This document shows, piece after piece, positions 4,930 through 64,000 of a DNA stretch of 64,000 nucleotides; the first letter of the stretch is position 1, and every line of letters begins with the position of its first letter. Source of the stretch: Girardia tigrina (Eukaryota); contig MQRK01188858.1 in the NCBI GenBank assembly GCA_001938485.1, positions 1-64,000 on the forward strand, read 5' to 3'. A program made the position numbers and the translations under genes. The notes under the pieces are model-generated. The model made no database searches. It saw only the letters and a list, made by a program, of their open reading frames with translations, and had not been told where the DNA came from.

Positions 4930-5252
4930 CCACCGTACCTCTTTGAACGAGCGTGACTCGTCGTCAAACAACTTTCCCGATCGCAACAACCCGAGTGACG
5001 CTCGTTCATATAATCAAAACCAATAGAAAAAGGAAAATGATGGTGATGAGGTGGAGAGACAAAAGAGACATGTTTTTCTATCAACGGTTCATGGTGCAAC
5101 CATGATTGAATTAGACAGCGGAAAACAGCTGGTTTTACGACCTATTATTGCCAAAAAGTACCATAACAAAAATTATTATCTTGGTTACAATAATAAAAAA
5201 ACGTGGTGATTTTTTTACCTACCTAGTGGAAAATAACCCAAAGGTAAGGTGG
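4930..5252. mobile_element. piggyBac-like MITE nested in the HINE-like element
   Basis: TTAA on both sides (4926-4929, 5253-5256); TIR ccaccgtacct / aggtaaggtgg; internal inverted repeat gaacgagcgtgactcg / cgagtgacgctcgttc. Confidence 0.75.
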
Positions 5253-5329
5253 TTAAAGAAACTGTTATGTATTTTATTAAACTGATTTTTTAAAATACTA
5301 ATATTTCTATGATATTAACCATTTCGTAG

Positions 5330-6300
5330 ACCAATCGCAGTATAATACACTATTCGCAGTATAAAATACCAATCACAATAAAATACACTATTCACAGTAT
5401 AATACACTATTCAGAGTATAATACAATATTCACAGTATAATACACTGTTCGCTGTATAAAATACCAATCAAAGTATAATACACTATTCGCAGTATAATAC
5501 ACTATTCGCAGTTTAAAATACCAATCACAATATAATACACTATTCACAGTATAATACAATATTCACAGTATAAAATACCACTCACAGTATAATACACTAT
5601 TCGCTGTATAAAATACCAATCACAATATAATACACTATTCACAGTATTAAATACCAATCACAATAAAATACACTATTCGCAGTATAAAATACCAATCACA
5701 GTATAATATACTATTCGCAGTATAAAATACCAATCACAATAAAATACACTATTCGCAGTATAAAATACCAATCACAATAAAATACACTATTCGCAGTATA
5801 AAATACCAATCACAGTATAATATACTATTCGCAGTATAAAATACCAATATAATACACTATTCACAGTATAAAATACCAATCACAATATAATACACTATTC
5901 ACAGTATAAAATACCAATATAATACACTATTCGCAGTATAAAGTACCAATCACAATAAAATACACTATGCGCAGTATAAAATACCAATCACAATAAAATA
6001 CACTATTCGCAGTATAAAATACCAATCACAATATAATACACTATTCACAGTATAATACACTATTCAGAGTATAATACAATATTCACAGTATAATACACTG
6101 TTCGCTGTATAAAATACCAATCAAAGTATAATACACTATTCGCAGTATAATACACTATTCGCAGTATAAAATACCAATCACAATATAATACACTATTCGC
6201 TGTATAAAATACCAATCACAGTATAATACACTATTCATAGTATAAAATACCACTCACAGTATAATAAACCATTCACAGTATAATATAATATTCGCAGTAA
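5330..6300 (+). repeat. Tandem array of about 19-bp monomers, two variants often alternating as 38-bp dimers
   Basis: cagtataatacactattcg and cagtataaaataccaatca repeated head-to-tail without unique spacers. Confidence 0.95.
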
Positions 6301-11993: not shown

Positions 11994-12149
11994 GAAATAA
12001 TCTCTAAATAAAAATTTAAGTTTACAGATAATATTTGTTACTAATTAAAATAAAAATGATTTTATAAAATATATTTTATAAAATCATTTTTATTTTAATT
12101 AGTAACAAATATTATCTATAAACTTAAATTTTTATTTAAAGATTATTTC
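11994..12149. repeat. 156-bp spacer-less AT-rich palindrome
   Basis: 78-bp arms with 2 mismatches, centred between 12071 and 12072. Confidence 0.9.
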
Positions 12150-16037: not shown

Positions 16038-16831
16038 TTATAGAGCAGAATACTCATTTTTGGAAATGAGAGGTTCTACTCTTACAACACAACCAGTGTT
16101 GTTGCATTTTTTGTGTAATTCGATTGTGCATTTCGTTTCGAAATTTTCTTTGAATAAATCATATTTTTCCGGTTCGAAAATCGCCTCCATCTTGAAATCG
16201 TGCTCTTGCGGCACCTCTGAGAAAATATTCTCACAATAACTCAATAATTCTCGTTTGATTGATCTAATTTGTTTTTGTGACACAATAATGTCGATAGATA
16301 AAAGAGCGACATCGATCAGAACATTCAATTTCTTTATCAACATTCGAATAACATCGAGAGATTGTTGTTTTGCGGATTTGTTCGGTTTCAAATTAATGTG
16401 ACAATCGTGAATAAATTTTTTGATCATACCCGGTGGAAAGCATAGTTTCGTACTCGGATTCAACGTTTTATTAGTCACAATTTTTGCGACATCTTTAATT
16501 AAATTATGCATCACAAATTGTCTCTTTTTCTCCGTCAATTGGAGCTCTCCTTTCTCCAATATAGTTTTACAAATCCCCAAAATATTCGTTGTTTGAAAAG
16601 TGCCTTTCAAATTGTCTTTGCTCGCGATTTCCGCTTTCGACACATTCGTTTAAATCAGCTCATTTTGCAGAGCTTCACTTATTTGATATTCAAGTTTTTG
16701 TCGCCAAGCGACACTTTATTCGGAAAATACGCTATTTCAAATCGACGATGTTTTCTATCGGTTTTTACGATTAGTTTCACAACGGAAACATTTGTCAATC
16801 GCTTTTGATTTTTCGGTGAAAATAATGCCAT
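16038..16831 (-). pseudogene. SBDS: Intronless SBDS/Sdo1 ribosome maturation factor pseudogene
   Basis: MALFSPKNQKRLTNVSVV...RFEIAYFPNKV, frameshift near 16712, VAWRQKLEYQISEALQNELI*TNVSK (TAA at 16650-16652), then ILEKGELQLTEK, NPSTK and KPNKSAKQQSLDVI, all SBDS hallmarks. Confidence 0.9.
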
Positions 16832-19891: not shown

Positions 19892-20789
19892 ATATTTTAT
19901 GAACGTAATTGCAGTAAACATTGTCACCGATATTTTATTTCATATTCTTCAAGATTTTTTATATATTCCTGTAATATTCTAAAGTTCTTGTTCTGTTTTA
20001 GTAATCTTTTATGGTGATAATATTTTATATTTCGAATATCAATGTTGAAAATTTTAGTTATATTTATAGCTATTTTATAAATTGCATTTTACACATTCAC
20101 AATAATAATGTGAAAATTCAACTTGTTTCAGTTCATATTGAAGGTATACTATCATATATTTTCCAATTGTCAAACTTCCTAGAATCAGTTAGGAAATGAA
20201 GTTTGTAGAAAATGCCTCGTAAAAATAAAAACCATTTTAAAAGTTAGTTTCAATAGAAATCAATATGAAAAAAATATTTTTTTATTCCAACAATTAAACA
20301 AAAGAAACAGTTAAAAAATTTATTTTTTGGAGTACTATAACAATAATTCGCATAATAGTTTAACAAGGAAGGTAACACATAGGGGAAGTTGATTTTCATC
20401 TTCAAGATTTCTGCTTGACTGATTCATAAAAGTAAGAAATTATGACCAATTGAAAATATTAATTCATCATAATGCCAGTGAAATTTTTAACTGTATATAA
20501 AAAATAAAAAAACATAAAATTAATATGAACGATATATAGAAGGATAAGAAAATGTAGATGTCACAAAAATTTTCATACACGGGAAAATTTAACAAATTTA
20601 TCATGTTTTATTTTCAGACATCCTCAAACAATATCGTTGTCAAAATTATATTTAAATCATTTTAAAATCGTTTTTAGTATTTTTTTCCTTTAAATAATTT
20701 TGAAATCATTTTCATTTCTATCTTCGAGAAAATTTCGACATGGAAAATATTAGAAATTTCATTAAAGAAATAGTCCAAAGTTGTTAACT

Positions 20790-21230
20790 TGTAATAGTAG
20801 ACCGATTCAGTAGATATATTAGCCTGAATGCAGTTGCTATCCAAAATGAAAAAAAAACAGTGCGTAGAATTATATTGGACAGATGGATATGGAAGTTTGG
20901 ACCTCCAAATGAAATCCATGTTGATAGAGGAAAAACATTTGAATCGGCTTTGTTCAAAGATGCAGTTATAAGGTTCAAAGTTGAGATAATCTATTCGGGT
21001 CCATATCATCATAATAAAAATGGGATAGTGGAAAGACAATTTCGAACAATCAGAGATGCTATAAATATTATAATGAAGGACGGAGACCACAGAGATTGGA
21101 CAGAAGTTTTGTCGGATATAGAATTTATGTTGAATAGTACAGTTCAAGCTACGATGGTGTTTCATTGGCTGAAATAATATTTGGGAGACGATTAAGACAT
21201 TGGTGGAAGAACAATAAAGAAACTAAAGGA
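20790..21230 (+). mobile_element. Ty3/gypsy integrase core remnant
   Basis: WIWKFGPPNEIHVDRGKTFES...YSGPYHHNKNGIVERQFRTIRD...EFMLNSTVQAT. Confidence 0.9.
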
Positions 21231-21683: not shown

Positions 21684-21800
21684 TTTGATCAAATTTTCAC
21701 ATAATCATTTATTGTCATCGAAAATGAGTAAATGTTCAAAGTTGGAGAAAAGTAATTGAGTAAAAAGCCTTCAAAAATAGGTTTCTAAACTCCATGGATA
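21684..21800 (-). repeat. Second copy of the dispersed repeat at 1488-1605
   Basis: Reverse complement begins tatccatggagtttagaaacctatttttgaaggctttttactcaat. Confidence 0.75.
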
Positions 21801-22063
21801 AAATATAAAGAAAACAAACTAATATAAAACATGGAAAAAAGGAAAATTTACTTTAGTTAATTTTTCATACCAAAATGGCGTTTTTGACTATTAATATTAT
21901 AAATGTTATTCGGAATTTGTTAATTTTTCCTTTAATTTTTTACCTGTCATTTATTTTGTTGTAACAAATCCGTTTTGGAACTTTTTATATATAATTTTTT
22001 CAGTACTGCAGATTAATACATCGATCACGAATCTTTATTTTTGTGTTTCTAATTTGTTAAATA

Positions 22064-28054: not shown

Positions 28055-28735
28055 CTATTCAAATATAAAATAAAAACAAACATAGAAACAGCCATTCGAT
28101 CGTTCAACAATCTGCGTAGCGAGGCTGCCGCGCTTCGTCTTTGGAGTTACTGAATTCGCTCGGAGACAAATTATATCGTCACTAACCTTAAGCGAGCAAA
28201 GGCGCTCAAAAGTCCGCCGCAACTCTGCACTGTATAGCTCCCAATCGTCAATTGTGGTCCTTAAGAGGACCGTATTTCTTTCACAATTATTAGAAGCACT
28301 TGAGGAACCACCGATGAAATAATCTGGTTGAAACAATTTCCTAAGATTCGAATTCAGTACGTAATCGAAAGTGGTACTATTCAATTCAACCATGACGCTG
28401 ATCAACACACACTTTCCATGAATTCCAGAAGTAAAGTAAACATAAATTCTCTGTAATTGCAAATCACTGTCGCCTTCGTAAACACCAGTGGTGATTATTT
28501 TCATAAACTTCGTTCCAATACTGTTTCCACAACTTTGAAATATTCTCAGACATTCATACCATTGATCATGAATGTCTTCACAAATTTTAGTAGGTACTGA
28601 AATCTCGTCAGTTTCTTTGATATACAATCTCTGATCGGGAATCCTTACATGATTATCTTCAAATATCTTTATAAAATAATCTACATTAAAAATATAGCCA
28701 AACGGCAAAGTTATCTGTTCTTTTAAATTAGACAT
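28055..28735 (-). CDS. Intact intronless 226-aa ORF of unknown function, antisense within a Par-3-like intron
   Basis: ATG-to-stop ORF of 681 nt in very AT-rich DNA where chance ORFs are short; globular-looking composition; no TE motif recognised. Confidence 0.6.
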   Translation of the reverse strand: MSNLKEQITLPFGYIFNVDYFIKIFEDNHVRIPDQRLYIKETDEISVPTKICEDIHDQWYECLRIFQSCGNSIGTKFMKIITTGVYEGDSDLQLQRIYVYFTSGIHGKCVLISVMVELNSTTFDYVLNSNLRKLFQPDYFIGGSSSASNNCERNTVLLRTTIDDWELYSAELRRTFERLCSLKVSDDIICLRANSVTPKTKRGSLATQIVERSNGCFYVCFYFIFE

Positions 28736-28885
28736 TAAATTTCAGTTAATGAATATTTTTCTTTAATGAAAAGAAATCGATATCGCCAGCGATAATTTTA
28801 TTCGATATCAAAATCATATAACAATAATTCGATTAAACAAACGAATTCAATTAACCAATTTTTAAATTCCTAATATATATATATA

Positions 28886-29090
28886 CAGGGTGGCCCAATG
28901 GGTACGCAGCCTCTAATTTTTGCGAAATATATTTCCGCAAATACAGTAACTTATTTCTCTTACTGGTACTTAAATCAATACACGATTGGAATATCGCCTT
29001 CCAATCTGTATATAATGATATATTCCCAGTGAATACAGGAATCTGCAGTGGTTCAAAAATTAGAGGCTGCGTACCCATTGGGCCACCCTG
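28886..29090. mobile_element. Young Tc1/mariner-type MITE with a BEL/Pao gag-like (DUF1759) internal fragment
   Basis: Perfect 37-bp TIRs cagggtggcccaatgggtacgcagcctctaatttttg inside (TA)n; minus-strand interior reads LQIPVFTGNISLYTDWKAIFQSCID...NKLLYLRKYIS. Confidence 0.85.
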
Positions 29091-29169
29091 TATATATATA
29101 TATANNNNNNNNNNNNNNNNNNNNNNNNNNNNNNNNNNNNNNNNNNNNNNNNNNNNNNNNNNNNNNNNN

Positions 29170-42083: not shown

Positions 42084-43430
42084 ACAAGTTTGTATGGACA
42101 GTAATAAATGCATAATTACATTGAAGAAAATCGAAATTTTTTTTCCGTATATTTTGTCATATAAATTACTTATTACTTGATTCAATCTAATCATTAAGTC
42201 TCTTCGGGTCTCTGCTTAATTTTCAATATCAAATTTGTATCATAAAACTTTACTGAACTAGCTTAAGTGGTTCATAAAAACAATAATTAAGTTTAAAGTA
42301 ATTTAAGTTCTCATATGGTTAACTTTTATGCTCATAAAAGATTCAATTATATAACTATATATTTAAATGAGAGCAACCACTAGTAAGATTCCTTATATTT
42401 TTTATGATTTATCCACAAATCTTATTTTCAGTCAGTATTTTAAGCGAATCATGTATATTCTCTTTGGTCGTTAAACTATTCGTTTGTTTTCTGTGCTAGG
42501 AAAATATTTCTGTAAATCTCATTATTTCAAGTTTAAAATACTTCGAAACTTTTAATTTCCAGTAACTGGTTGTTTCTAATGAAAAACTTAAAATATAATT
42601 ATATATTGATAAATAGATAAATATAGTCTTTCCTATAAAAAATAATATTATTTACTTCTGGAATGTTTTTACTACATTCAACACAAAAACATTTGCCACT
42701 TATCATATGGCAAAAATAGAAAACTTTTTATGGCATAAATAATAATAAATAAAATATAATTTTTGCTAATATCTAAATTAAAATATTTATATTAAAATCT
42801 ATTAACATTTATACTAATAATAACGATTATATAATAATAAATAGAACTATCTAATTGTTTTACATTTTATTTATTTTTTATAAATAATTTTTTTAATGAT
42901 TTGAGAGATGCTTCTTAAACAGTAAATTCTAATGTTAATATTATCATCATATTTATTGATATTAGCAAAAAAAATAACTTGATCCAATAATTATTTCTTT
43001 GACTTCATTCAAATGAAAATCTTATCAAATTTCGATCAGTTAAACTATGTTTGCTCAGTTTGTTTGCCGTTCTTTCTACGCTTCTGCCAATCCATAGGTT
43101 TCAATGTAAACAGATACTCAACGATAAAAACATTAACAAAATTTATGTGAATGAACACATTCTATCCAGCATTGTTTCTATATGCTTAATAAAATATCAT
43201 TTATTTATTGGTTTTATTAATTTAAATTTGTTTTCGTCTGGAATTTATTTGACGTTTTATGGTTCAATTTATGCCACAAAGAATAATTATAAATAAATTA
43301 ATTAATTTTTTATTATTTCGTTTATATAATGTCGCTTTAATTGTTTTTTTTTCGATAATGAAATATTATTTATTTCGTGTTTTTAAGAAATATTGTTATT
43401 TTATTTAGAATAAATAAATAAAAATAAATA

Positions 43431-43950
43431 CTGTATTTCCTCGAATTAACGGTGTCCTTAAATAGTTGACCTTTTTAAGTAAACGATAGTCTCAATTAGT
43501 CGGTGTAATTAGTTTAATATTTTTTTAAGAAATTTAAATAATAAATTTAGTTTAATAAATTTAATTTAAATAAATTGTGAAAAATCTAAAATATTATTAT
43601 TTTTTAATTATTAAACAATTTATTTGATTAAAATTTCGATTTCATAATCAGTTTATGTCATTATAACACATTCATTAATATTTATATTTGCGTCATCATT
43701 TGTACTTAATTCCTCATCGTTTAGCAGGTCGTTTGATTTAAAAAAAAGTGAACCTTAATAAAATTGAATAAAGTAATTCAACATACTTTAATCGAGATCA
43801 AATTGACATCATTTGGTACCTGACACAAATTTAACACATTCACCCATTTGATATTTAATAGGGTGCCATTAATATTCCTTGTGAGGAATATTTTCGAATG
43901 GTGTTTATTGTATGTTGTGTTTGGTATGTTATTTTTAAGATTTTGTTTCT
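43431..43950 (-). mobile_element. pogo-family 3' end remnant, related to the element at 61210-62663
   Basis: ta|ctgtatttcctcgaattaacgg TIR; 43720-43890 aligns visibly with 61440-61610. Confidence 0.7.
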
Positions 43951-44074: not shown

Positions 44075-44495
44075 CTAGCCTGAACCCGTTTCGCCAGGTC
44101 TGGCGAATTCTTTTGTTAACCAAATCCATTATTATTTTATTATCCATTATTACATGATCTTATTACATTTTTATTATTACATTTTTATTACATTTTTTAT
44201 TACATTCTTATCTTTTTTATCTTATAAAAGCCCAAGTCACTCACTGCCTGCCTCACTGCCTCACTAACGCTGTAAGGTAAATTTTTGAAATGATTTTATA
44301 ATCAATAAAGAAATGATTGTATATTTATCTAATANNNNNNNNNNNNNNNNNNNNNNNNNNNNNNNNNNNNNNNNNNNNNNNNNNAATATACAATCATTTC
44401 TTTATTGATTATAAAATCATTTCAAAAATTTACCTTACAGCGTTAGTGAGGCAGTGAGGCAGGCAGTGAGTGACTTGGGCTTTTATAAGATAAGA
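44075..44495 (-). mobile_element. Non-autonomous Helitron with an inverted copy of its 5' end around an N gap
   Basis: A|TC start tcttatcttataaaagcccaagtcactcactgcc; hairpin ttcgccag-gt-ctggcgaa about 12 nt from CTAG|T; 44217-44326 is the reverse complement of 44385-44493. Confidence 0.75.
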
Positions 44496-46335
44496 TATTT
44501 TAATCATAATTAATATTTTTGACAACAATTAAAAATTATTTTGCAATTTAAATTGTAAATTAAATTGTAATTTAAATTTGTTTGAATTATAAGAGGTTTA
44601 GAAATAAAATTAAAATTTATCAATCAAGAACGATGACTAGCTACAAAAGTTATTATTGAGAATGGTCCTGGAGGCAATTCGAGTTGTCATAGCAGTAAAT
44701 GTATTGAAAATCATTTTAGTGTAATTAATATTACTGATTCTATAATATTTGAGCAGGTTCTTTACTTTTCATACAGTTTAGATATTTTTCTTCCAAATTA
44801 TAGATTCAACAGTTTATCCTACCAAATTTTAAACGCTTTTGTTAAAAAATGTTTGCAGAATTGATAAAAGAATTGTTTAAACAAAATTTGTATCATTGAA
44901 TTGTTACTTCTATTTACTCAACTTAAAATGAACAAATCTCAATACCAAACCAACAAATATTAAATATCCTTTTGATTAAAATCACTGATTTTATTCAAAT
45001 AACCAGTGTCAACGGATAGTCGAATAGTCCAGTATAAATGTGTTAAATAAGATCTTATCCTCTGTGAAAATATTCCACAAGACCTTGCTCATATACTGCT
45101 TCATAGATAATTCGATAAATTTTCATTATTTATCCAGAGAAATCATAATTACTATATAATACATTCGAAATCTTCAGTCGTACATGCACACTTCCCACGA
45201 TGATGTTTCAAGCTGTGGATAGTATTCGAATGCTGATTCTTTGATCCTCATATACTATTTTCAGCTTTTTTGTTAATTGGCCTTCTTTTTCTTTATCAAA
45301 ACCTGATGTTCGACAAATAATGAATGCATTTATCAGGTTCTTCCCAATCGATAAAGATGAATATACTTTTTGTTAGAAATTTGGTAAGCTCTTAAATTTT
45401 TTGAATTTTTTAGAAAAATGTTACATGTCTTAAAATGATAATTCATTAAATTTTATAATTGTACGATTTAAAATATTTATTTAAAATTAGAGTTTAAAAA
45501 GTATTGTTGAAAACATTTACATTAGTTATAAATGAAATAAGTGGAAATTATTTAAAAAAAGATATTTTAAGATAATGAATTAAATACTTTTGAAATGAAA
45601 CTAAAGAGATGATATTTAAACAGAATTAACAGTTTCAAAAATTAAATACACAATGAAAAGTAAGTCATTTATGAAGGTATAAAATTAAAAACAGAAGAAA
45701 ATATTCAAAATAAATGTTTAAATGTGTTTAATTTAAAAATTATAATATCAAAAGAAATCAAAAGAAATCTTATATTAAATATTAAAAATAGTTTAAAATA
45801 TGTATACAACATTTTTAAAAATAAGATTTAACGTTTAATTACAAAATTTAACAAAATAAGAAATTGTGAAAATTAATTCTTATACACAATTTATTTTTAA
45901 TAATTAAAATTTATATCGTTATTTATATTTAGCAATTTTACATGTGGTTTATGCAAAAAAAATAGGGAAACATCGTTCCTCATAAATTTGCTTGAAAATA
46001 GTTAATTATTATATTAAGAAATATTTGGTATCATGAACTCAATCGTTGATCACAAACCCAATAATTATTATAAGTAGACTTAAATAACTCGTTGTTTATA
46101 TTTGTTTGTTTTCTTTTGAACAATTAAGACTTTTTCACACTTCGATATTCCATCATTGAAATTTTAACTTTGACTATTTTTCAAACCGCTAAAATTGTAT
46201 GGCTAAGCGTAAATTAATAAGAACTAAATTATTATTTTTAATTCTTTAATAAACCAGTGGCTTGTTGGATGTAGTAATGATATAGAAAAATAAGAAAATT
46301 AAACAAATAGATATATTAAAAAATATTTACTATTA

Positions 46336-46680
46336 CCGTATTTTTCGTACTGAGTCGATTTTACTAAAAGCGGTTTATTTTTTGTAAAATCCATATATAA
46401 ATGGATTCTGAGTATAAGTCGACCTCTAAGCGACTGAACCATATATCGATTGTTCATTAGGATTTAAGCACATGATGGATAACGGTTATTGTTTTAATAA
46501 ATCGACGACGACGGGGGCTCTATATCGAACACGCGGCAGTTTCCGGAAAACTATCTCAAGCATTTTTGAACATACAGGAGGACTGCCGACAAGTAAAATC
46601 CTTATATAAGTCAATGTGGAGTATAAGTCGAGGGTCGCCATTTTTATGTAAAAATGTCGATTTTTAGTCCAAAAATACGG
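46336..46680. mobile_element. pogo/Tigger-like MITE
   Basis: ta|ccgtatttttcgtact ... agtccaaaaatacgg|ta with repeated gtataagtcga subterminal motifs. Confidence 0.75.
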
Positions 46681-47159
46681 TAATTATTTTTTGTTTTTCT
46701 TGGTTCCAATTATTTGATAATCTTTTAAAGTAAAAAAACGATCAGGCTATTATCATTTGTTTCTTTTATTGTTTTTTTTAATTCTTTCAAATTCTTAAAA
46801 ATCTTTGATATATGTATATAGAGTTCTTCTTAAGGTTTCCAGGTTGGTGTAACCTAAGAAAATGGGGGTGTACAATATAACATATTTATTTTTACTCAAA
46901 AATTGTTACATCACAAATGCACACTGGATTTAAAGGTTGAAGAACAAAAGAATGTCTTATACTTATTAAATAAGTATACAATTATAAATTATCTTGTCTA
47001 GGAGCGTGTATGTGCTAGAGGGAGAAAGAGTAGGTGGAATATTAGTGTGTGTATTTTTATTGAATCCATGCTTTATCTATAAATAGCTAAATTTTTGGAT
47101 GTGCATCTACAAAAGTTTGGTGTACATTGTACACCCAAAATAACCTTAAAATACCCTAT

Positions 47160-52759: not shown

Positions 52760-53404
52760 TTTCAAAGCCAGAAGAGCTTCACAAACACGTCCACAGTGAG
52801 TCATAGGAGTAGTTGATAGCTATTATTTCATTATAGTCACTGAAAATCTGACAGAAGTCATTGAACAACGAAAGGGTACCCGAAAATGCTCCAACCGCGT
52901 ATCAAAAGAGTGCAATGCACATATCCTTCTTGTTTCAAAGCTTTTGCGGAACGGAGGGAACTAAAAAGACACATCAAAAACGTACATACAGTCACGACGC
53001 CGCAGCGACAGAATGGTGACAAACCTTTCCAGTGTCCCATGAAAAATTGTCACAAGACGTATAAAACAGGTGAAATGGTTAAAGCGACATTTATTGATTA
53101 ATCACAAAACCCAAGGCAGTACCAGTAGTACTAGTGCTTCACAAAATAACGTAGATGAATAATGTACAAAATCTTCGAACCTGATCGCGATGCATGATGT
53201 GTCAGTGCCCCTCAGTACCGCGGAGGCGGACTCATGAGTGATTCCAAGGGTGGTTCTCGACTTTCGGTTAAGTAATACAAATGATGTGGAGATATTTCGG
53301 TGTCCCTTTACTCATTGTACGAAACGTGTTTACACAGCCAAAGCTCTACAGAATCACGGTACGAGGGATCATGACTGGTCCTTTCTGAATGGGAAACCGA
53401 AGTG
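52760..53404 (+). pseudogene. Decayed multi-C2H2 zinc-finger ORF, copy A (ZnF gene or retroelement N-terminus)
   Basis: CTYPSCFKAFAERRELKRHIKNVH; CPMKNCHKTYKTGE(frameshift)WLKRHLLINH; CPFTHCTKRVYTAKALQNHGTRDHDWSFLNGKPK*. Confidence 0.7.
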
Positions 53405-56327: not shown

Positions 56328-57080
56328 TTAATCCGTGTTTTGAGATGACGATTTCATCTCTCCATTGTGGGCCTCCCATCTCTTTCGAAGGTATTCAGCC
56401 TCTAGGCTCTTTAGAGGGTCCATCCAAACAAAAGGATCACTAGCAGTCCCCGATAGGCCTCCTATAGGGTTGGATAGTTTCGGTTTCCGAGATCTTTTCG
56501 GCTTCCCTGTGAGAATCGACCACCCATGGATTGTATAGCCATGGTTCTGCATACCTTTGGCTATATTCGTGGACTTCATAGTCGCGAAAGGTACATCTGC
56601 CATCCTAAAAGTTAGATGTGTTTCTTCAGTACCTATCGCTTCTTCCACCGCCGTCGAGATAGTCGGGAGGTCCGTTACGGATTGAATCTGGTTGCCTGGA
56701 ATGTTGAGATTTTCTAAGACTCTTTCTTCAGTGTTATTTGTTTTACTGGTTTGCGCTGGTAAAATTGTCGGTTCTCTAATTTCTTCTGTCTCCTCCAATT
56801 TATGATCCCGGTAAAGGAGCCTTGTCAGCCACCCCTTCGTTTTGTACAAATTTTTATATAGTGTACATGAGAATGATAATTACTGTTATTGTGTCTCTTT
56901 GAACTGATCAGGATTAGTGGAAGCGGGCACCGTGCGGTCCCTTTTCATGTGTCTGTTCAGCTCCTTCTTTTCAGGAAACTCATTGTAGCATCTTTCTACT
57001 AGACATTGGTGACGTTTAACTCTCTAGTTAATCAGCTTCGGCACAGTTGTTCTTGTCCTATTGAGTCTTCTTGATCGAAT
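56328..57080 (-). pseudogene. Decayed multi-C2H2 zinc-finger ORF, copy B (paralog of copy A)
   Basis: RVKRHQCLVERCYNEFPEKKELNRHMK; YKTKGWLTRLLYRDH; AKGMQNHGYTIHGWSILTGKPK, colinear with copy A. Confidence 0.7.
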
Positions 57081-57271
57081 TAAGGAGTTTATGTTTCCCT
57101 CGATACAGGAAGGTCTCTGTGAACGATGCGATTAATGAAAATCTATCCAATGTACAAGTTTTTACAACCCTGACAATTAAATTTGTACTTAAAATTAGCT
57201 TTCATTAAATTGTCCATTGTGAATTTCATTGTAAGGTAATTTCTTACTTTACATGTTACGGGCACTATTTT

Positions 57272-57675
57272 ATAATATTATAAAAGCCCAAGTCACTCAC
57301 TGCCTGCCTCACTGCCTCACTAACGCTGTCAAGAACGCTCATATTATCTACTTACAATTGTAAGTAGATATTTATATTAATAATAATNNNNNNNNNNNNN
57401 NNNNNNNNNNNNNNNNNNNNNNNNNNNNNNNNNNNNNNNNNNNNNNNNNNNNNNNNNNNNNNNNNNNNNNNNNNNNNNNNNNNNNNNNNNNNNNNNNNNN
57501 NNNNNNNNNNNNNNNNNNNNNNNNNNNNNNNNNNNNNNNNNNNNNNNNNNNNNNNNNNNNNTAATGATTAAATGTGGAAAACAAATGAATTTTAAAAAAA
57601 ATGTCTTTTGAAAATTTATTTGAAATTTTAACTCTATATAATTATATCCGTCATACATGACGGGTTATTTACTAG
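57272..57675 (+). mobile_element. Non-autonomous Helitron with the same 5' end as 44075-44495; spans an N gap
   Basis: tataaaagcccaagtcactcactgcctgcctcactgcctcactaacgctg; hairpin ccgtcat-ac-atgacgg (57648-57663), then CTAG|T. Confidence 0.75.
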
Positions 57676-57869
57676 TTTTAATATAATCGATATTTTTATA
57701 AACATTATTCTTAAGTCTTTTGAAACCTTCGTAATTAAGATTTTTTATAATTTTCATATTGTTCCAATTTATTCTCATTTTGAATTTTGTTAGAGGGGAT
57801 TTTATCTAAGATTAATTTAATTTTCTATGTGTTTATTTGGATACATCAATCGTTTCCTAAGAATGTCAA

Positions 57870-58197
57870 GTTCGTAATGTGTACTTGTAAAGGTTGAGGA
57901 AAGATTCCAAATTCAATGAATTAAACCTGTAACCATACTATTTTTTTATCTATTTTCTCAGTAACTTTTTGGTATTGTGTTGATCTCTGTCCAACAGATA
58001 ATTTATAATGATTCTTGTTTGGCTTTTTCGATTCATACAAATTGAATGAATCTTTCACATTTTTCTATCAATGTTTCTCCATAATAACCTTTCCTAAATT
58101 TTTCAGGAAGTAATTGGTTCGTAAAAATATCTATTGTAGATTTAGTCACCATGTTAGTTGCGCTTACGTTTTCTTCAATATTAGAACTGGAAGTCAT
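57870..58197 (-). mobile_element. Probable gypsy gag remnant
   Basis: LPEKFRKGYYGETLIEKCERFIQF resembles the PExF...FIxxCERYF gag N-terminal motif; stops downstream. Confidence 0.45.
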
Positions 58198-61100
58198 GAT
58201 TGTCAGAATTTTAATTAATAATATTACACAAATTAAAAAAAAATATAACTTTTTCTTTAAAAACTTTCATCCTTAGTTTTTTTTCGTTTTGTTGTTTAAA
58301 AAAAATCGATATACATTTTGCTATTTTCATTTATTTATTTAAACATTTTCTTCATTTTAAATTTTTATAAAATAATTTTGATTGTATTACTCATAATTAA
58401 TTTAAATTAATATTTTAAAATGTCTTTATATTTCTTTTATGTGAAATTTATTTAAACGTTTATTTAACTTTTTGGAATTTTGAATTATTCATTTTTAGCG
58501 TTTTTTTAATATTTTTTAAATTTTTTGATACTTTTATGCAATTGTTTTAATTGACTATACGGTAGTTTTTTTTGTGATTTAAAATTATTATTTTAAACTT
58601 TTATTTTTAAAAAATTTTTTGAATTTAAAATACTTTAATTTATTGTAATTTAAAACTGCTCTTTTTCTTTGAAATTTTGTATGTTTTTTTGGGTTTTTGA
58701 ATTAAGTTTGTTTTTTAATTTTTAAAATTCTAATATTAAATTTTCTAAATAAATTATTTGGTGAAATAAATTTTTACCTATAAACAAAATTAATAATTTC
58801 TTAAGTAAAGTTGAATATTTTTTCATTTTAAGTTTTTAAAAATCATATTATCGCCTCAAAAATAATAAATATTTATCTTTATCTGATTTGACTTTTAATT
58901 TTTTAATAATTCTGACTAATTTTTCAGTGTCAATTAGCATCTCATTAAAGTTTCATTATTTGGCATGAGACCAAAGAATAAAAATATATTTGGTAGAAAA
59001 ATAATTAAGAGTACTTCGATTCTAATTTTTAGAATATTCTTATAAACATTTCACATTAATAATTCTATAAATTCAACCACTTTTAGAGATATCAAATTTT
59101 ATTGGTAAAATACGTTTTTTTTAAAATATGTATAGTGAATATATTAACTAATCTGTCTCCTACTATAACTTATAATTAATGCAACGAAGTTGATAGTCTT
59201 TCAAATAAAAATTACAATATACTTAATTTTTAAGTAGATCCATGTAATTTTTATTTTTTTACAATCTTGGTATTCTTTTGTATTCGAGACCCTTGTGTTG
59301 CATAATCTCTTCTAAACTAGATAATTAAGAAGGTTGATTATAACATTTCCACTACAACTTTTGTGGTCGCGGCCCATTTTTTTGTAAACATCTGTTTTTA
59401 TATCTTCATATCTTTAAAACTAAGGACAAATTAATGAAAATTAATAATTTTAACTAAATATTTTTTTCATCAATAAATGTATTTAATTCAATTTTAATGA
59501 AATAGAATTTTTATTATTTATTAATTCCATTTTTTACATCGGAAATATTTTATATAAATTTCATTAGCTCATTCTAAATGAATATAAAAAAACTTTATTA
59601 TTTTCAATTAGAATTGCTTATTAATTTCAATTTTTGGTCTCAAAAATAGTGTCATAAATAATCGCAACAATATATGTTCAAATCCTACATCACTCTATCA
59701 CAGGAATTTTAGTTCAATTATGTTTGTCATAATCATTCAAGTACACGTTTTTGAAGATGTGATGTTAATAATAGTGAGCACAGTAAGATCCAGGCAAGTT
59801 GAGACAGACGTTTTGTTGCAGTGTTTAAGGTCCTTCCAATTTCATAAGAATTACTCACTAATTTTTTGTGTCTTTTTTCAAAGCCATTATCACGGAGATA
59901 CTCGATTCTTGTGTATTAAAAAGCTTTAAAGACCAATTTATTTAAAAATGCTTAAAAATTAGTGTTTTGATTTCTATGGACCTACAACTTACAATATTCA
60001 GATACATTATTTGTATCTAAGTTCAAGAGGGAAGTATTTGAACCAGTTAGAAATAAAACAGAACTTCCTATTTACTTCAGTAAAATCTTTCTCGACTTTT
60101 TGAACTGATATAAATATAAAGGTGCATGTTTTTACATTTGTAAAATTTTGAACTTTAAAAAAATAAAAATAAGTAATTTTAATTAGTTGTAATTATGTTC
60201 AGTACAAATCTGAAAATTTTAGGTAAAAATCATCCAGTACTCTTTCTGTCTTGAATATGATTTTATTTTATGGTTAATGTGATCGTATTAATGTAGTATA
60301 TGATTATTAAAAATGAAATAACTTATGGATGATAATTAGAGGATCACGGTACATAAAGTCCCCGCCTCTAAATTCGAATCAAACACTAAATATGTATGTA
60401 TCATTATAAAATTTTGATGTTGATGTCAAGTATTTTAATATACAACATAAAAAGCAATAATCTCTAAAAAAGATCCATAAACAGCATGAAGTCTGTTATT
60501 AAATGTAAAAGTCGATTTATCAAGTTCTATTATTAAATCACACAGAATGTTATATATATATGGGGATTAGTAATGATATAATGATTCAATTTGGAGATTA
60601 TAATGTCCTAACACATTTAATTTAATTATTCACTCATAACACACCACATTCAATAATTAATCATATTTAAAATGGTTGATCATGTAACTTGATCACTACA
60701 TCTCTTACGTCCAATATGGCGTTAGCCATTCCACGTTTCGGGTTGTTTCTGATCAGTCATATTTTCGTAATTTATAACTCCTATTATGAAGTTTGATTAT
60801 TATTATATAAGGACCGTAATGGCGCCTTTCCTGCTTTTTGCTATTATCATTTTTCACATTTACTAAGTCTCCAACTCCAATTGTCTATTAGTTCCGATAT
60901 TCAGATTTTTTTCTTTTTACTGATTCGATATATTTGTTTTTCGCCGTCATTATTACATCATTTTGTTTATAACTCTCAAACCAATCGATATTTATATTTT
61001 TCCCCAAAATAATCTCCGAGGGACTTAACATCAATGTTTTTTGAACAGTTGCATTCATTGTTAAATCCATTTAGGATAAACACTCATCCCAATATCTAAA

Positions 61101-61209
61101 TAATTTATCTTCCACACAGCAAAATATCCAGTCTCAAATTGTTCGGAACTGTCTCTCTACTTACCCGTTAGCTTGATAGTGGTATGGGCTCGAGTATTGT
61201 ATTATGAAG

Positions 61210-62663
61210 TTTTTTTAAATATTTATTATCATTAATTATTAAACAATCTATTCAATATTTCATTTCTATTAAAAAAATTTGCACAAACATTATAAGAAAA
61301 CTTCATTTTTCATTATTTTATTTAAAAATTTATTCAATTACAATTTCTTTTTCATTTTCCTCATCAGTATCTGTTATTTTGCCACATTCATCAATATCTA
61401 TATCTGGATCTTCATTTGTAGATAAATCCCGATTTTTGAGAAAGGCGTTCGATTTAAAAAAAATTAACCTCATTCAAATGAGATGAAGTAATTCCACATA
61501 CAGAGAATGACTTTATTATCACATCATTGGTATCTGACACCATGCTAATTTGACCCATTTAACCATTTGAAATTTTGAAGGTGCCCTTAATCTTCCTGAA
61601 TGTGTCATATTTTTGGAGTGTTCTTCATTTCGTATCCATTCTTCATACAGTTCACGATATTTCTGCTTAAATGATGCATTCAATGAAACATCAGTTAGCT
61701 GTAAATACTTAATGCACCAGAAATGCATACCATATTAGTTCTAACAGATTTCAAAATTTCTTTAATATCATCCATCAAATGGGAACGAAAGGCATCCCAA
61801 ACGAGTACTCTAGGACAAAACGATAAAATTTTCAAACATGATGAAATCCATGCGGTAACAGAGTGGGTTGCATGGCGGCGACGCTCTGGCTTTGGGTCGG
61901 GGGGGAATAAGAAATTATCTCACTCAGTTCGCTGGTGGGGATCTCATCACCGTTCCTCGTCATTTGATTTTGCGATAGAAATTTACAAATTTTAATCTGA
62001 CTACGAAAGAAATGCGGCGGCATTTGATGCAATCGAACCTGAGAAAGAATCCAAAAACAAATAACTCTTTCGACTCGATTGATCGTGATTCATCCAACGA
62101 ATCACCGAATTGAACACTTCGACTTCACTCACTCAACAACACTCGATTCAAATAGGGATCACAAAATAATCGATTTCAAAAAATATCACACCTCAATTTC
62201 CAAATCACATTTCGCCAAACTCCAACAATTTTCCTTATCCGATAAAACAAAAATTCGATCGACTTCAATTTTTTCAAATAAAATATTTTTTTATTTATTA
62301 TTTTTTAACTTTATATTTTTTTGATAAAATGAAATCCGGATGATAATTTTCTTTTAAAAACAACACTCATCCATTTAAAAATATATTTCAAGACAATATA
62401 TTTCGACGGATCTATCGTCACCTTCAGGCCACTAATTAATAATCAATTCACCTGTATATAAATACAAAAATGATTATTATATAATCGATTTTGTCAATTG
62501 ACGTACTTCTTTGCATTTTTGTAAGAAAACTAAATTTTAAATGATAAAATCTCATTAAAAATAAAAATCTCAATTTAAAATAATAAAGATTAAAACAATT
62601 TTTCGTGATTACATAGTGACATGATTTAAATAAACGGCGCGCCGTTTATTCGAGCAAATACGG
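61210..62663 (-). mobile_element. pogo-family (about DD35D) derivative inserted in the gypsy integrase
   Basis: 5' TIR ta|ccgtatttgctcgaataaacgg at 62642-62663; transposase C-terminal half VLVWDAFRSH...KYLQLTDVSLNASFKQKYRELYEEW...SGRLRAPS (61380-61855); 3' TIR missing. Confidence 0.8.
61950..62270 (-). pseudogene. Kelch-family (KEAP1-like) BACK-domain gene fragment inside the pogo element
   Basis: KSIEFL.LSDK...AKCDLEIE, about 60-nt gt-starting spacer, SEVEVFNSVIRWMNHDQSSRKSYL(frameshift)ILSQVRLHQMPPHFFRSQIKICKFL. Confidence 0.75.
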
Positions 62664-63469
62664 TATTTCCATTGGGTGGTCTATCATTAAATTGTTGACT
62701 GCTTTGATAATTTTTGTTGACTTATTTATTAAAAATGTCTCATCCTGTTTCAACCGAGCTTCCATAGTTTTCACAATTTCTTTAATCTACTTGGTAGGAG
62801 TTAATCCTTTCTGCTCCTCATTTTTTTTCTTCCGAGCTTTTAATTTTAGAAATGATTCTGTATATTCAAACCAAGTGATTTCTTCTTTCATTTTCTAATT
62901 ATCCATACAATATTTTAGCATAAATTTTGTTAGTTTAGTTGACGTTAGTTTATGTTTCATTATTTTCTCGAAAATTTTTTAAAACTTTTTGAATATATTC
63001 TTCAATTGATGCTGATCCTTTCCGATGTGTCAAGGCACTCTGCAAGTCTTTCACTAAATTTGTTGACCTTGTGAATAATTTTTGTAGTTTTTAAAGGCTG
63101 TGAATAAAATATTCCGTTGATCCATACTGATTTGAATTAGATCAAGTAAGAAAATCTTCAATGTCTATCTCACCAGTACGTTTTCTCGGCTGTGGAATGA
63201 TGCGAATAAGTTTACTTGTATTCAGCATAGTCCTTATGTTATTAAATGCAAAAGTGTCAAGTCGATTTATTAAAATATATTATTAAATCACACAATATGC
63301 TATATATGAGGATTATTAATGATATTATGATTCAATTTCGAGATTATTATGTCATATGTCATTCAAACTCACAAACACACCACATTCAATAATTTGAAAT
63401 GGTCGATTATGTAACTACTTCTCACGCAGTCAATTAATACTTAATGATAATACATTTTGCTTTAAGAAC

Positions 63470-64000
63470 GGCTCGGCTGTGCCTAGGAATGGATTTAACC
63501 AATCTGAGATAGTACTCAGGTCAATGAGGTGATATTGGCTCGTTGTCTTTTACTTTCTTCTTGGCCATGACTCAACAGTGCTCACTAGAGTTAAGATCTG
63601 AAGACGAGCCTTGTTATGGATTCAAAAGAGGGATGTTTTAGAACTTTAGCCACTGTTTGACGATTTTTGCTTTATGGCAAGGTACGTAATCTTGTTGGAA
63701 AATGGCTTATTGGTGACGACGTCTCAGTCAAAGGGGCAGCTTGACTTTTAATATCTTCAAGTAAACATTCGAGATGATTGTCGTAACGACACAACCGACA
63801 GTAGTAGTTGTAATATTGAATCATCCTACTTTCATTTGAAAACGTTACTTTATGCCAATCGTCTTTTGTCCAAGTCTGATATTTGCGGCATAATGTGAGT
63901 CGATCACTGTTATTCTTAGTGGATAACAGCGGCTCGCGTGTTGGTCGGTATGATTTAAATTTAAAATCCTTTGATAGTTGATGCTGGAGGGTTCTAATGG
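63470..64000 (-). mobile_element. Tc1 transposase remnant running off the window
   Basis: RLTLCRKYQTWTKDDWHKVTFSNES, IFQQDYVPCHKAKIVKQWL, QGSSSDLNSSEHC*. Confidence 0.85.

What the first reader, a model, noticed from the sequence alone, without database searches (positions are those of the whole stretch)
60494..63419. Three-level nest: gypsy > pogo > captured KEAP1-like BACK-domain fragment
Seen on the minus strand: LTR, integrase up to HPMEI, then TA plus pogo TIR, AT-rich spacer, kelch BACK fragment with a ~60-nt intron-like interruption, pogo DDD C-terminal half, then integrase resumes and the second LTR follows. The TIR matches that of a sister pogo relic at 43431. VRLHQMPPHFFRSQIKICKFL recalls the KEAP1-type BACK end. 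Inference: a Pack-type pogo whose transposase N-terminus was replaced by host genomic DNA. Such gene-fragment capture is well known for Pack-MULEs and Helitrons but, to my knowledge, rarely described for pogo elements.
Basis: partly seen in the sequence, partly recalled or inferred. Interest (0 to 1): 0.7.

Follow-up and report, generated by a model that had tools for sequence, protein, structure and literature searches.

The report
Dead pogo holding a kelch fragment
A decayed piece of a KEAP1-like kelch gene lies between two pieces of pogo-type DNA transposon inside a broken gypsy-type retrotransposon; it was likely copied in during DNA repair, a process already described for pogo-family elements, so this is an ordinary dead relic.

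Summary
Partly confirmed. The kelch BACK fragment is real: Pfam BACK 39.9 bits, E 4.7e-10, with one frameshift read as X; KEAP1 is the best PDB hit. The LTR-like pair, the TA plus pogo TIR, and the match to the sister pogo are real. Three parts of the reading fail. (1) The left gypsy arm is gag-like, not integrase. Only 571 nt lie between LTR and TIR, so protease, RT, RNase H and the front of integrase are missing and the nest is not clean. (2) The pogo has no right TIR, so it is not an intact Pack element. (3) Capture by pogo-family elements is in print: 115 TcMariner Pack-TIRs, with 'Tigger' found 63 times in the list. Best model (0.55): a pogo inserted at TA in gag; its front was replaced by host DNA during gap repair; one deletion then removed the pogo's right end and most of pol. 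The intron is plausible but unproven. Parent gene and copy number could not be tested. Interest is low.

The parts
63237..63419 (-). 5' LTR-like repeat of a gypsy-type relic (ends uncertain by about 15 nt)
   Evidence: similarity just beyond the 3' end is borderline, 32 of 2000 shuffles
62666..63236 (-). decayed gag-like arm with several stops and frameshifts; not integrase
   Evidence: ESM Atlas 0.90, 0.89 to Retrotrans_gag clusters for 63090-62953; no gag or integrase family in Pfam; 62950-62666 unassigned
62664..62665 (-). TA directly before the TIR (left copy of a pogo target site)
   Evidence: sequence
62625..62663 (-). pogo left end: ~24-nt TIR overlapping a 22-nt palindrome at 62629-62650
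   Evidence: the palindrome does not fold better than shuffles, z -1.2
62260..62624 (-). AT-rich stretch, unassigned: pogo 5' flank and/or decayed BTB-end/3-box coding of the same kelch gene (motif-like words from about 62480, by eye only)
   Evidence: negative in Pfam, PDB, a local profile (88 of 200 shuffles as good) and HHalign (E 0.11-0.12); by-eye spacing partly fits the KBTBD2 chain printed
62190..62259 (-). likely first part of the BACK domain, frameshifted (by eye)
   Evidence: no hit alone; spacing fits KBTBD2 as printed
62128..62189 (-). 62-nt interruption, candidate intron (GT..AG)
   Evidence: 2 of 10 donor/acceptor pairs restore frame; the other (62191-62142) leaves an in-frame stop
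61962..62127 (-). KEAP1-like BACK C-terminal half, one frameshift near 62056
   Evidence: Pfam BACK positions 59-102; KEAP1 residues 249-303 of chain 6wcq_C
61860..61961 (-). GC-rich (57%) 102-nt stretch, open in the kelch frame; kelch linker or a second filler; the cargo/pogo junction lies in or just after it
   Evidence: no match in Rfam, plasmids or elsewhere in the window
61330..61859 (-). pogo-type transposase C-terminal part (second and third Asp region, acidic tail), frameshifted
   Evidence: DDE_1 E 0.019; 72-73% to sister relic; WDAF..LTD motif reading is from recall
61206..61329 (-). very AT-rich (12% GC) tail, presumably pogo 3' flank, ending with no TIR
   Evidence: its similarity to the sister tail is not above shuffles, 785 of 1000
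60701..61205 (-). gypsy-type integrase C-terminal half, 7 stops in 168 codons
60494..60700 (-). 3' LTR-like repeat
43429..43913 (-). sister pogo relic: transposase C-end plus intact right TIR and TA; reference for the missing end

Best explanation
A KEAP1-like kelch gene fragment sits between a pogo left end and a pogo transposase C-terminal half inside a gypsy-type relic, and it was likely copied into a resident pogo as repair filler, with a later deletion likely removing the pogo's right end and most of the retrotransposon's pol. Step 1 (inferred from the exact TA|TIR junction): a pogo of about 1.5 kb or more inserted at a TA in the gag region. Step 2 (inferred): a break inside the pogo was repaired by template switching onto host genomic DNA. 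About 0.2-0.7 kb of a kelch gene replaced the DNA-binding and first catalytic parts of the transposase. This is the gap-filling route described for single-copy animal Pack-TIRs, and it needs no transposition. Step 3 (inferred): one deletion ran from the pogo's 3' flank into the integrase core. The order of steps 2 and 3 is not resolved. Shown: every coding part has stops or frameshifts and only one TIR remains. It most likely does nothing today.
For: BACK/KEAP1 identity of the cargo. TIR begins exactly after a TA. Both pogo pieces resemble the same sister relic: TIR 19 of 23, coding part 72-73%. They lie in the right order and strand, and their total span (about 1.45 kb plus a lost end) is near the 1.6-4.0 kb reported for intact Passer elements (PMC9976928). 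Gag-like left arm and integrase right arm lie in proper order between two LTR-like repeats, so one deletion explains both missing blocks. No direct repeat flanks the cargo and no Helitron-type hairpin stands out at its 3' side. The likely intron points to a DNA template. Gap-filling explains most single-copy Pack-TIRs, 115 of 370 of which are TcMariner (PMC8277862 passages).
Against: No right TIR or second TA, so it is not shown that the two pogo pieces come from one element. No parent gene, orthologous empty pogo or second copy was available; none lies in this window. Junctions are too decayed to test microhomology. In Tan et al. the pogo sequence lost at capture is small (median 4.6% of the element), while here roughly half is gone. 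The 3' tail's similarity to the sister is at chance. The intron and the upstream exon lack statistical support. The gag call rests on one Atlas search with only 104 of 256 shared features, and shuffles reach 0.9 in 4-10 of 100. The window is dense with truncated relics, where chance juxtaposition is common.
Confidence: 0.55

Rival explanations
1. Deletion collage: unrelated relics (two pogo copies, a kelch pseudogene or duplicated segment, perhaps two gypsy copies) were brought together by successive deletions or ectopic recombination, and no capture by a pogo took place.
For: Three of the junctions have no transposition hallmark. The LTR-like repeats differ by 14% plus large indels and show no duplication of target site. 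The window is full of truncated mariner, Tc1, hAT and gypsy relics.
Against: It needs several deletions that leave six pieces on one strand and in the order expected of a nest. Both pogo pieces resemble the same sister family.
Confidence: 0.22
2. LTR-mediated capture: the gypsy reverse transcriptase switched template onto a host or chimeric RNA, so that the foreign cassette replaced pol, as in LTR-mediated retrocopies.
For: Foreign sequence replacing part of the internal ORFs between two LTRs is the anatomy reported for all Drosophila cases, some with two parents (PMC5131818 passages). A TIR-core-like 15-mer (12 of 15) overlaps the integrase restart at 61196-61182 and could be a microhomology.
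Against: The 5' junction falls exactly on TA|TIR, a transposition mark. The cargo appears to keep an intron. The 15-mer match is at chance level window-wide (6 seen, 3.1 expected; 13 of 100 shuffles), and the core was chosen after the fact.
Confidence: 0.1
3. The kelch DNA arrived later as an independent insertion carried by another element (for example a Helitron), deleting part of the pogo.
For: A Helitron-like end truncates the sister pogo at about 44076 (hairpin z -2.7). The 57% GC stretch could be a foreign end.
Against: No direct or inverted repeat brackets the cargo. The hairpin near its 3' side is not significant (19 of 200 shuffles), and the nearest CTAG lies inside pogo coding sequence.
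Confidence: 0.08
4. Assembly chimera in a repeat-rich draft.
For: The window has six N gaps and a perfect 109-nt inverted duplication around one of them.
Against: No gap lies in 57562-64000. The pieces are old and diverged, so they share no near-identical repeat on which to mis-join.
Confidence: 0.05

Closest known systems
Single-copy animal Pack-TIRs, e.g. Pack-Tigger1 and Tigger3b (Tan et al. 2021, PMC8277862; passages and supplement hits seen)
   Same: Non-transposon sequence flanked on both sides by pieces of one kind of TIR element; pogo-family carrier; exon-derived cargo; internal breakpoints.
   Different: Right terminus and second TA are absent; parent copy not identified; a much larger share of the element is lost; old and decayed; lies inside an LTR element.
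Passer (DD35D) family of pogo transposons (PMC7386202, PMC9976928; passages seen)
   Same: Short TIR under 30 bp, TA target, DDE_1-type domain, similar size range.
   Different: Asp spacing cannot be counted (34 or 35) because a frameshift lies between the two Asp; DNA-binding domains and first Asp are absent; no phylogeny was possible.
LTR-mediated retrocopies (Tan et al. 2016, PMC5131818; passages seen)
   Same: Foreign sequence stands in place of internal ORFs between two LTRs.
   Different: 5' junction is a TA|TIR; cargo appears to keep an intron; microsimilarity not shown.
KEAP1 / KLHL BTB-BACK-kelch proteins
   Same: BACK C-half, 18 identities in 55 aligned positions to KEAP1 (counted from the alignment).
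   Different: Fragment only; no kelch repeats; BTB not demonstrated; frameshifted; orthology to KEAP1 not established, since PDB holds few BACK domains.

Membership tests
Pack-TIR (Pack-type pogo) | Internal sequence is host-derived, not transposon | tested here: met
   BACK E 4.7e-10, KEAP1 best hit
Pack-TIR (Pack-type pogo) | Same kind of TIR element on both sides, collinear | tested here: inconclusive
   Both pieces resemble one sister relic; a single origin is not shown
Pack-TIR (Pack-type pogo) | Paired terminal inverted repeats with target-site duplication | tested here: not met
   Only the left TIR and TA; no second within 7 substitutions of 23
Pack-TIR (Pack-type pogo) | Parental copy of the cargo elsewhere in the genome | not testable with these tools
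   Only the window is available; no second BACK in it; protein and contig searches found no close parent
Pack-TIR (Pack-type pogo) | Microhomology at breakpoints, or multiple copies with shared junctions | not testable with these tools
   Needs the family consensus, parent gene and genome
pogo / Passer | DDE_1-type catalytic domain | tested here: inconclusive
   E 0.019-0.044, below cut-off
pogo / Passer | DD35D spacing | tested here: inconclusive
   Frameshift between the two Asp; 34 or 35
pogo / Passer | TIR under 30-40 bp after TA | tested here: met
   (one end only)
gypsy-type LTR retrotransposon | Paired LTRs in direct orientation | tested here: met
gypsy-type LTR retrotransposon | gag at the 5' side, integrase last | tested here: met
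   Atlas gag lead; integrase directly before the 3' repeat
gypsy-type LTR retrotransposon | RT and RNase H present (needed for formal classification) | tested here: not met
   Absent; the 'gypsy-type' label rests on integrase position
gypsy-type LTR retrotransposon | 4-5 bp target-site duplication, primer site | tested here: inconclusive
   LTR ends uncertain; a GACT on both sides is only suggestive
BACK domain (PF07707) | Score above the curated cut-off | tested here: met
   39.9 vs 20.9 bits with one X at the frameshift; 19.6 bits unjoined
KEAP1 orthologues | Clusters with KEAP1 in a KLHL tree; BTB and kelch repeats | not testable with these tools
   No KEAP1 set could be fetched; BTB tests negative

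The most novel reading that the evidence does not exclude
A two-step relay. A pogo captured an intron-bearing piece of a KEAP1-like gene. The gypsy that housed it then lost pol, kept both LTRs, and spread the cassette as a non-autonomous retroelement. A DNA-captured gene fragment would thus have been amplified through RNA. This predicts several genomic copies sharing all three junctions, some with the 62-nt intron spliced out.
Probability: 0.07. Interest if true: 0.6.

Novelty: new member of a known kind. Interest (0 to 1): 0.22.

Why it matters
As it stands, little. It is one more decayed example of host DNA inside a pogo-family relic, in an AT-rich, fast-evolving eukaryote whose lineage was not identified. 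It works like a gap-filling Pack-TIR but fails the intact-ends test, so it is not filed as a mobile Pack element. It would matter if the composite proved multicopy with shared junctions, because that would show a DNA-captured fragment being passed on by retrotransposition. It also records that this lineage has or had a KEAP1-like kelch gene.

Tried and rejected
BTB domain in the 'AT-rich spacer': motif-like words are visible by eye. Against KBTBD2 as printed, 3 of 5 motif spacings fit (31 vs 30, 16.7 vs 17, and 15 vs 15 codons once the 62 nt are removed) and 2 do not (53 vs 45, 37 vs 49). All tests were negative: Pfam no BTB; PDB 0 hits; frameshift-aware profile from brittle-star-type BTBs 13.0 vs shuffle mean 13.1; HHalign probability 0.5%. 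The profile is a divergent proxy, so the idea is unproven rather than refuted.

A remnant right TIR at 61196-61182: rejected. The bases encode the integrase YSSPY word and the match is at chance level.

Both repeats being 3'-type LTRs: upstream similarity is at chance, 899 of 2000 shuffles.

Left arm as integrase: 9 frame pairs against the second relic, best 4 of 200 shuffles, not significant after 9 tests. This is weak, since that relic's upstream part is itself decayed.

Parent gene: none of 5 candidates scored. Only 2 hits among 1.84 billion representatives, both multi-BACK proteins, one named from a brittle star. No usable Atlas hit. 0 loci in prokaryotic genome contigs for protein or TIR.

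Unjoined frames against PDB gave only unrelated hits. Rfam: 1 chance-level match. GC-rich stretch: no plasmid match.

Literature: searches listed no paper on a kelch fragment in a pogo, or on a Pack-TIR nested in a gypsy. PMC3597677 (passages) has no kelch or BTB case.

Unchecked: the pogo catalytic region read as one piece; metagenome and viral contig collections; the rest of the host genome.
Full report
Setting. The window is AT-rich eukaryotic DNA (10-41% GC per kb) with six N gaps, none in 57562-64000. A Pfam scan of 121 stretches (113 of the window's 121 stop-free frames of 65 aa or more, plus 8 pieces of this locus) found mainly mariner, Tc1 and hAT relics. An SBDS frame at 16038-16649 is 34-48% identical to named eukaryotic proteins and 86-91% to three unnamed records. 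The host is thus a fast-evolving lineage that I did not identify. A BACK domain suggests an animal (general knowledge).

The retroelement. Two direct repeats, 63237-63416 and 60494-60689, align at 74% with gaps and 86% over 177 gap-free columns. Their ends are uncertain by about 15 nt and no target-site duplication can be called. It is only 571 nt long, and its 46-aa open stretch 63090-62953 returns Retrotrans_gag clusters in the ESM Atlas: score 0.90, recognition 2494, ten of the ten best family-bearing hits agree. Against this, only 104 of 256 features are shared and Pfam finds no gag, so it is a strong lead supported by position, not a proof. The right arm starts at about 61205 and matches the window's second integrase relic (44% over 72 aa), but lacks the 66 core residues that precede this point there. 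Protease, RT, RNase H and the front of integrase are therefore missing. The two arms do not rejoin when the insert is removed.

The pogo. A TA followed by a TIR sits at 62665-62642. The only related sequence in the window is the sister relic's right end at 43429-43452. The transposase C-terminal part, 61859-61330, gives DDE_1 at E 0.019 and 72% identity to the sister over 61597-61318 (0 of 1000 shuffles). In the sister, 177 nt separate this block from the end of the element. Here integrase begins after about 113 nt, and no TIR is found at up to 7 substitutions. The right end is gone. A 12-of-15 TIR-like match at 61196-61182 is the integrase YSSPY codons and is at chance level. Short TIR, TA target and motif spacing fit the Passer family (PMC7386202 and PMC9976928, passages), but a frameshift prevents counting D34D or D35D.

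The cargo. Unjoined, 62126-62058 gives BACK at E 0.001. With one X at the frameshift near 62056 it gives 39.9 bits, E 4.7e-10, over profile positions 59-102. KEAP1 is the best of 8 PDB hits, E 3.3e-6, ahead of KLHL11, KLHL3 and gigaxonin. Upstream, removing 62189-62128 (62 nt, GT..AG) restores frame and gives the spacing seen in KBTBD2. However, the splice sites are weak, the stretch is more GC-rich than the presumed exon before it, and that exon hits nothing alone. By eye the 'spacer' holds BTB-end and 3-box-like words from about 62480, which would make the cargo at least 0.5 kb; every test of this was negative. A 102-nt stretch of 57% GC follows the BACK exon and is unexplained. No repeat brackets the cargo. 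No second BACK copy lies in the window, and no close parent was found.

Mechanism. The most economical history has three inferred steps: pogo insertion at a TA in gag; replacement of the pogo's front by host genomic DNA during break repair; and one deletion from the pogo's 3' flank into integrase. The exact TA|TIR junction argues for true transposition at the first step. The likely intron argues for a DNA template at the second. One deletion accounts for both missing blocks. I give this 0.55. A collage of unrelated relics joined by deletions (0.22), LTR-mediated template-switch capture (0.10), an independent later insertion (0.08) and mis-assembly (0.05) remain open. The evidence that separates them lies outside the window. 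Whatever the history, all coding parts are broken and only one TIR remains, so no present function is expected.

Comparison with what is known. Tan et al. 2021 (PMC8277862; passages, supplement hits) list 370 Pack-TIRs in 100 animal genomes. Of these 115 are TcMariner, and 'Tigger' occurs 63 times in their Supplementary Data 1; I saw two of those rows, and orthologous primate copies are included in the list. Tigger is a pogo family (PMC7386202). They attribute most single-copy cases to transposition-independent gap-filling and note that flanking elements often decay on one side. So the locus works like a single-copy Pack-TIR, but it fails the paired-ends test and the parent-copy test could not be run; I do not file it as an intact or mobile Pack element. 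Replacement of internal ORFs between LTRs is also known (PMC5131818, passages). Searches listed no report of a kelch cargo or of such an element nested in a gypsy; nesting as such is commonplace (general knowledge). Motif readings for gag, pogo, Tc1 and Helitron ends are recalled, except where a call is cited.

Verdict. This is an old, inactive, probably one-off relic of a known process. Interest 0.22. The boldest reading not excluded is onward spread of the cassette by the pol-less gypsy (probability 0.07, interest 0.6). A genome-wide search for the junctions would settle it.

Noticed in passing
window 63432-63998 (-): A Tc1-like transposase relic (HTH_Tnp_Tc3_2 E 2e-5) ends about 13 nt before the 5' LTR; possibly a fourth, outer level of nesting, but no Tc1 end was recognised beyond the 3' LTR.
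   Followed up: partly
window 46334-46682: About 350-bp MITE with TA-CCGTATTTTT at both ends, the same style of end as the nested pogo.
   Followed up: partly
window 44076-44493 and 57269-57329: Helitron-like 3' end (hairpin z -2.7 followed by CTAG on the minus strand) truncates the sister pogo; a related stretch lies at 57269-57329. A perfect 109-nt inverted duplication around the N gap at 44335-44384 looks like an assembly artefact.
   Followed up: partly
window 16038-16649 (-): SBDS open frame, strongly diverged from named eukaryotes (34-48%) but 86-91% to three unnamed records.
   Followed up: partly
window 20788-21177 (+): Second gypsy-type integrase relic (rve E 2.6e-9); nearby 21684-21807 is a 90% inverted copy of 1480-1605.
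   Followed up: partly
window 61860-61961: 102-nt stretch of 57% GC in otherwise 21-36% GC surroundings, open in the kelch frame; origin unknown.
   Followed up: partly
window 28055-28741 (-) and 56328-56879 (-): Open frames of 228 and 183 aa with no convincing Pfam family (a weak tubulin match, E 0.0099, for the first).
   Followed up: no
window 52865-53098 (+): C2H2 zinc-finger fragment (E 3e-5) in a locally GC-richer region.
   Followed up: no
window 11994-12149; 28873-29103; 5205-6157: A 78-bp near-perfect hairpin with no loop, a small MITE with 50-nt perfect inverted ends, and a 19-bp tandem array.
   Followed up: no
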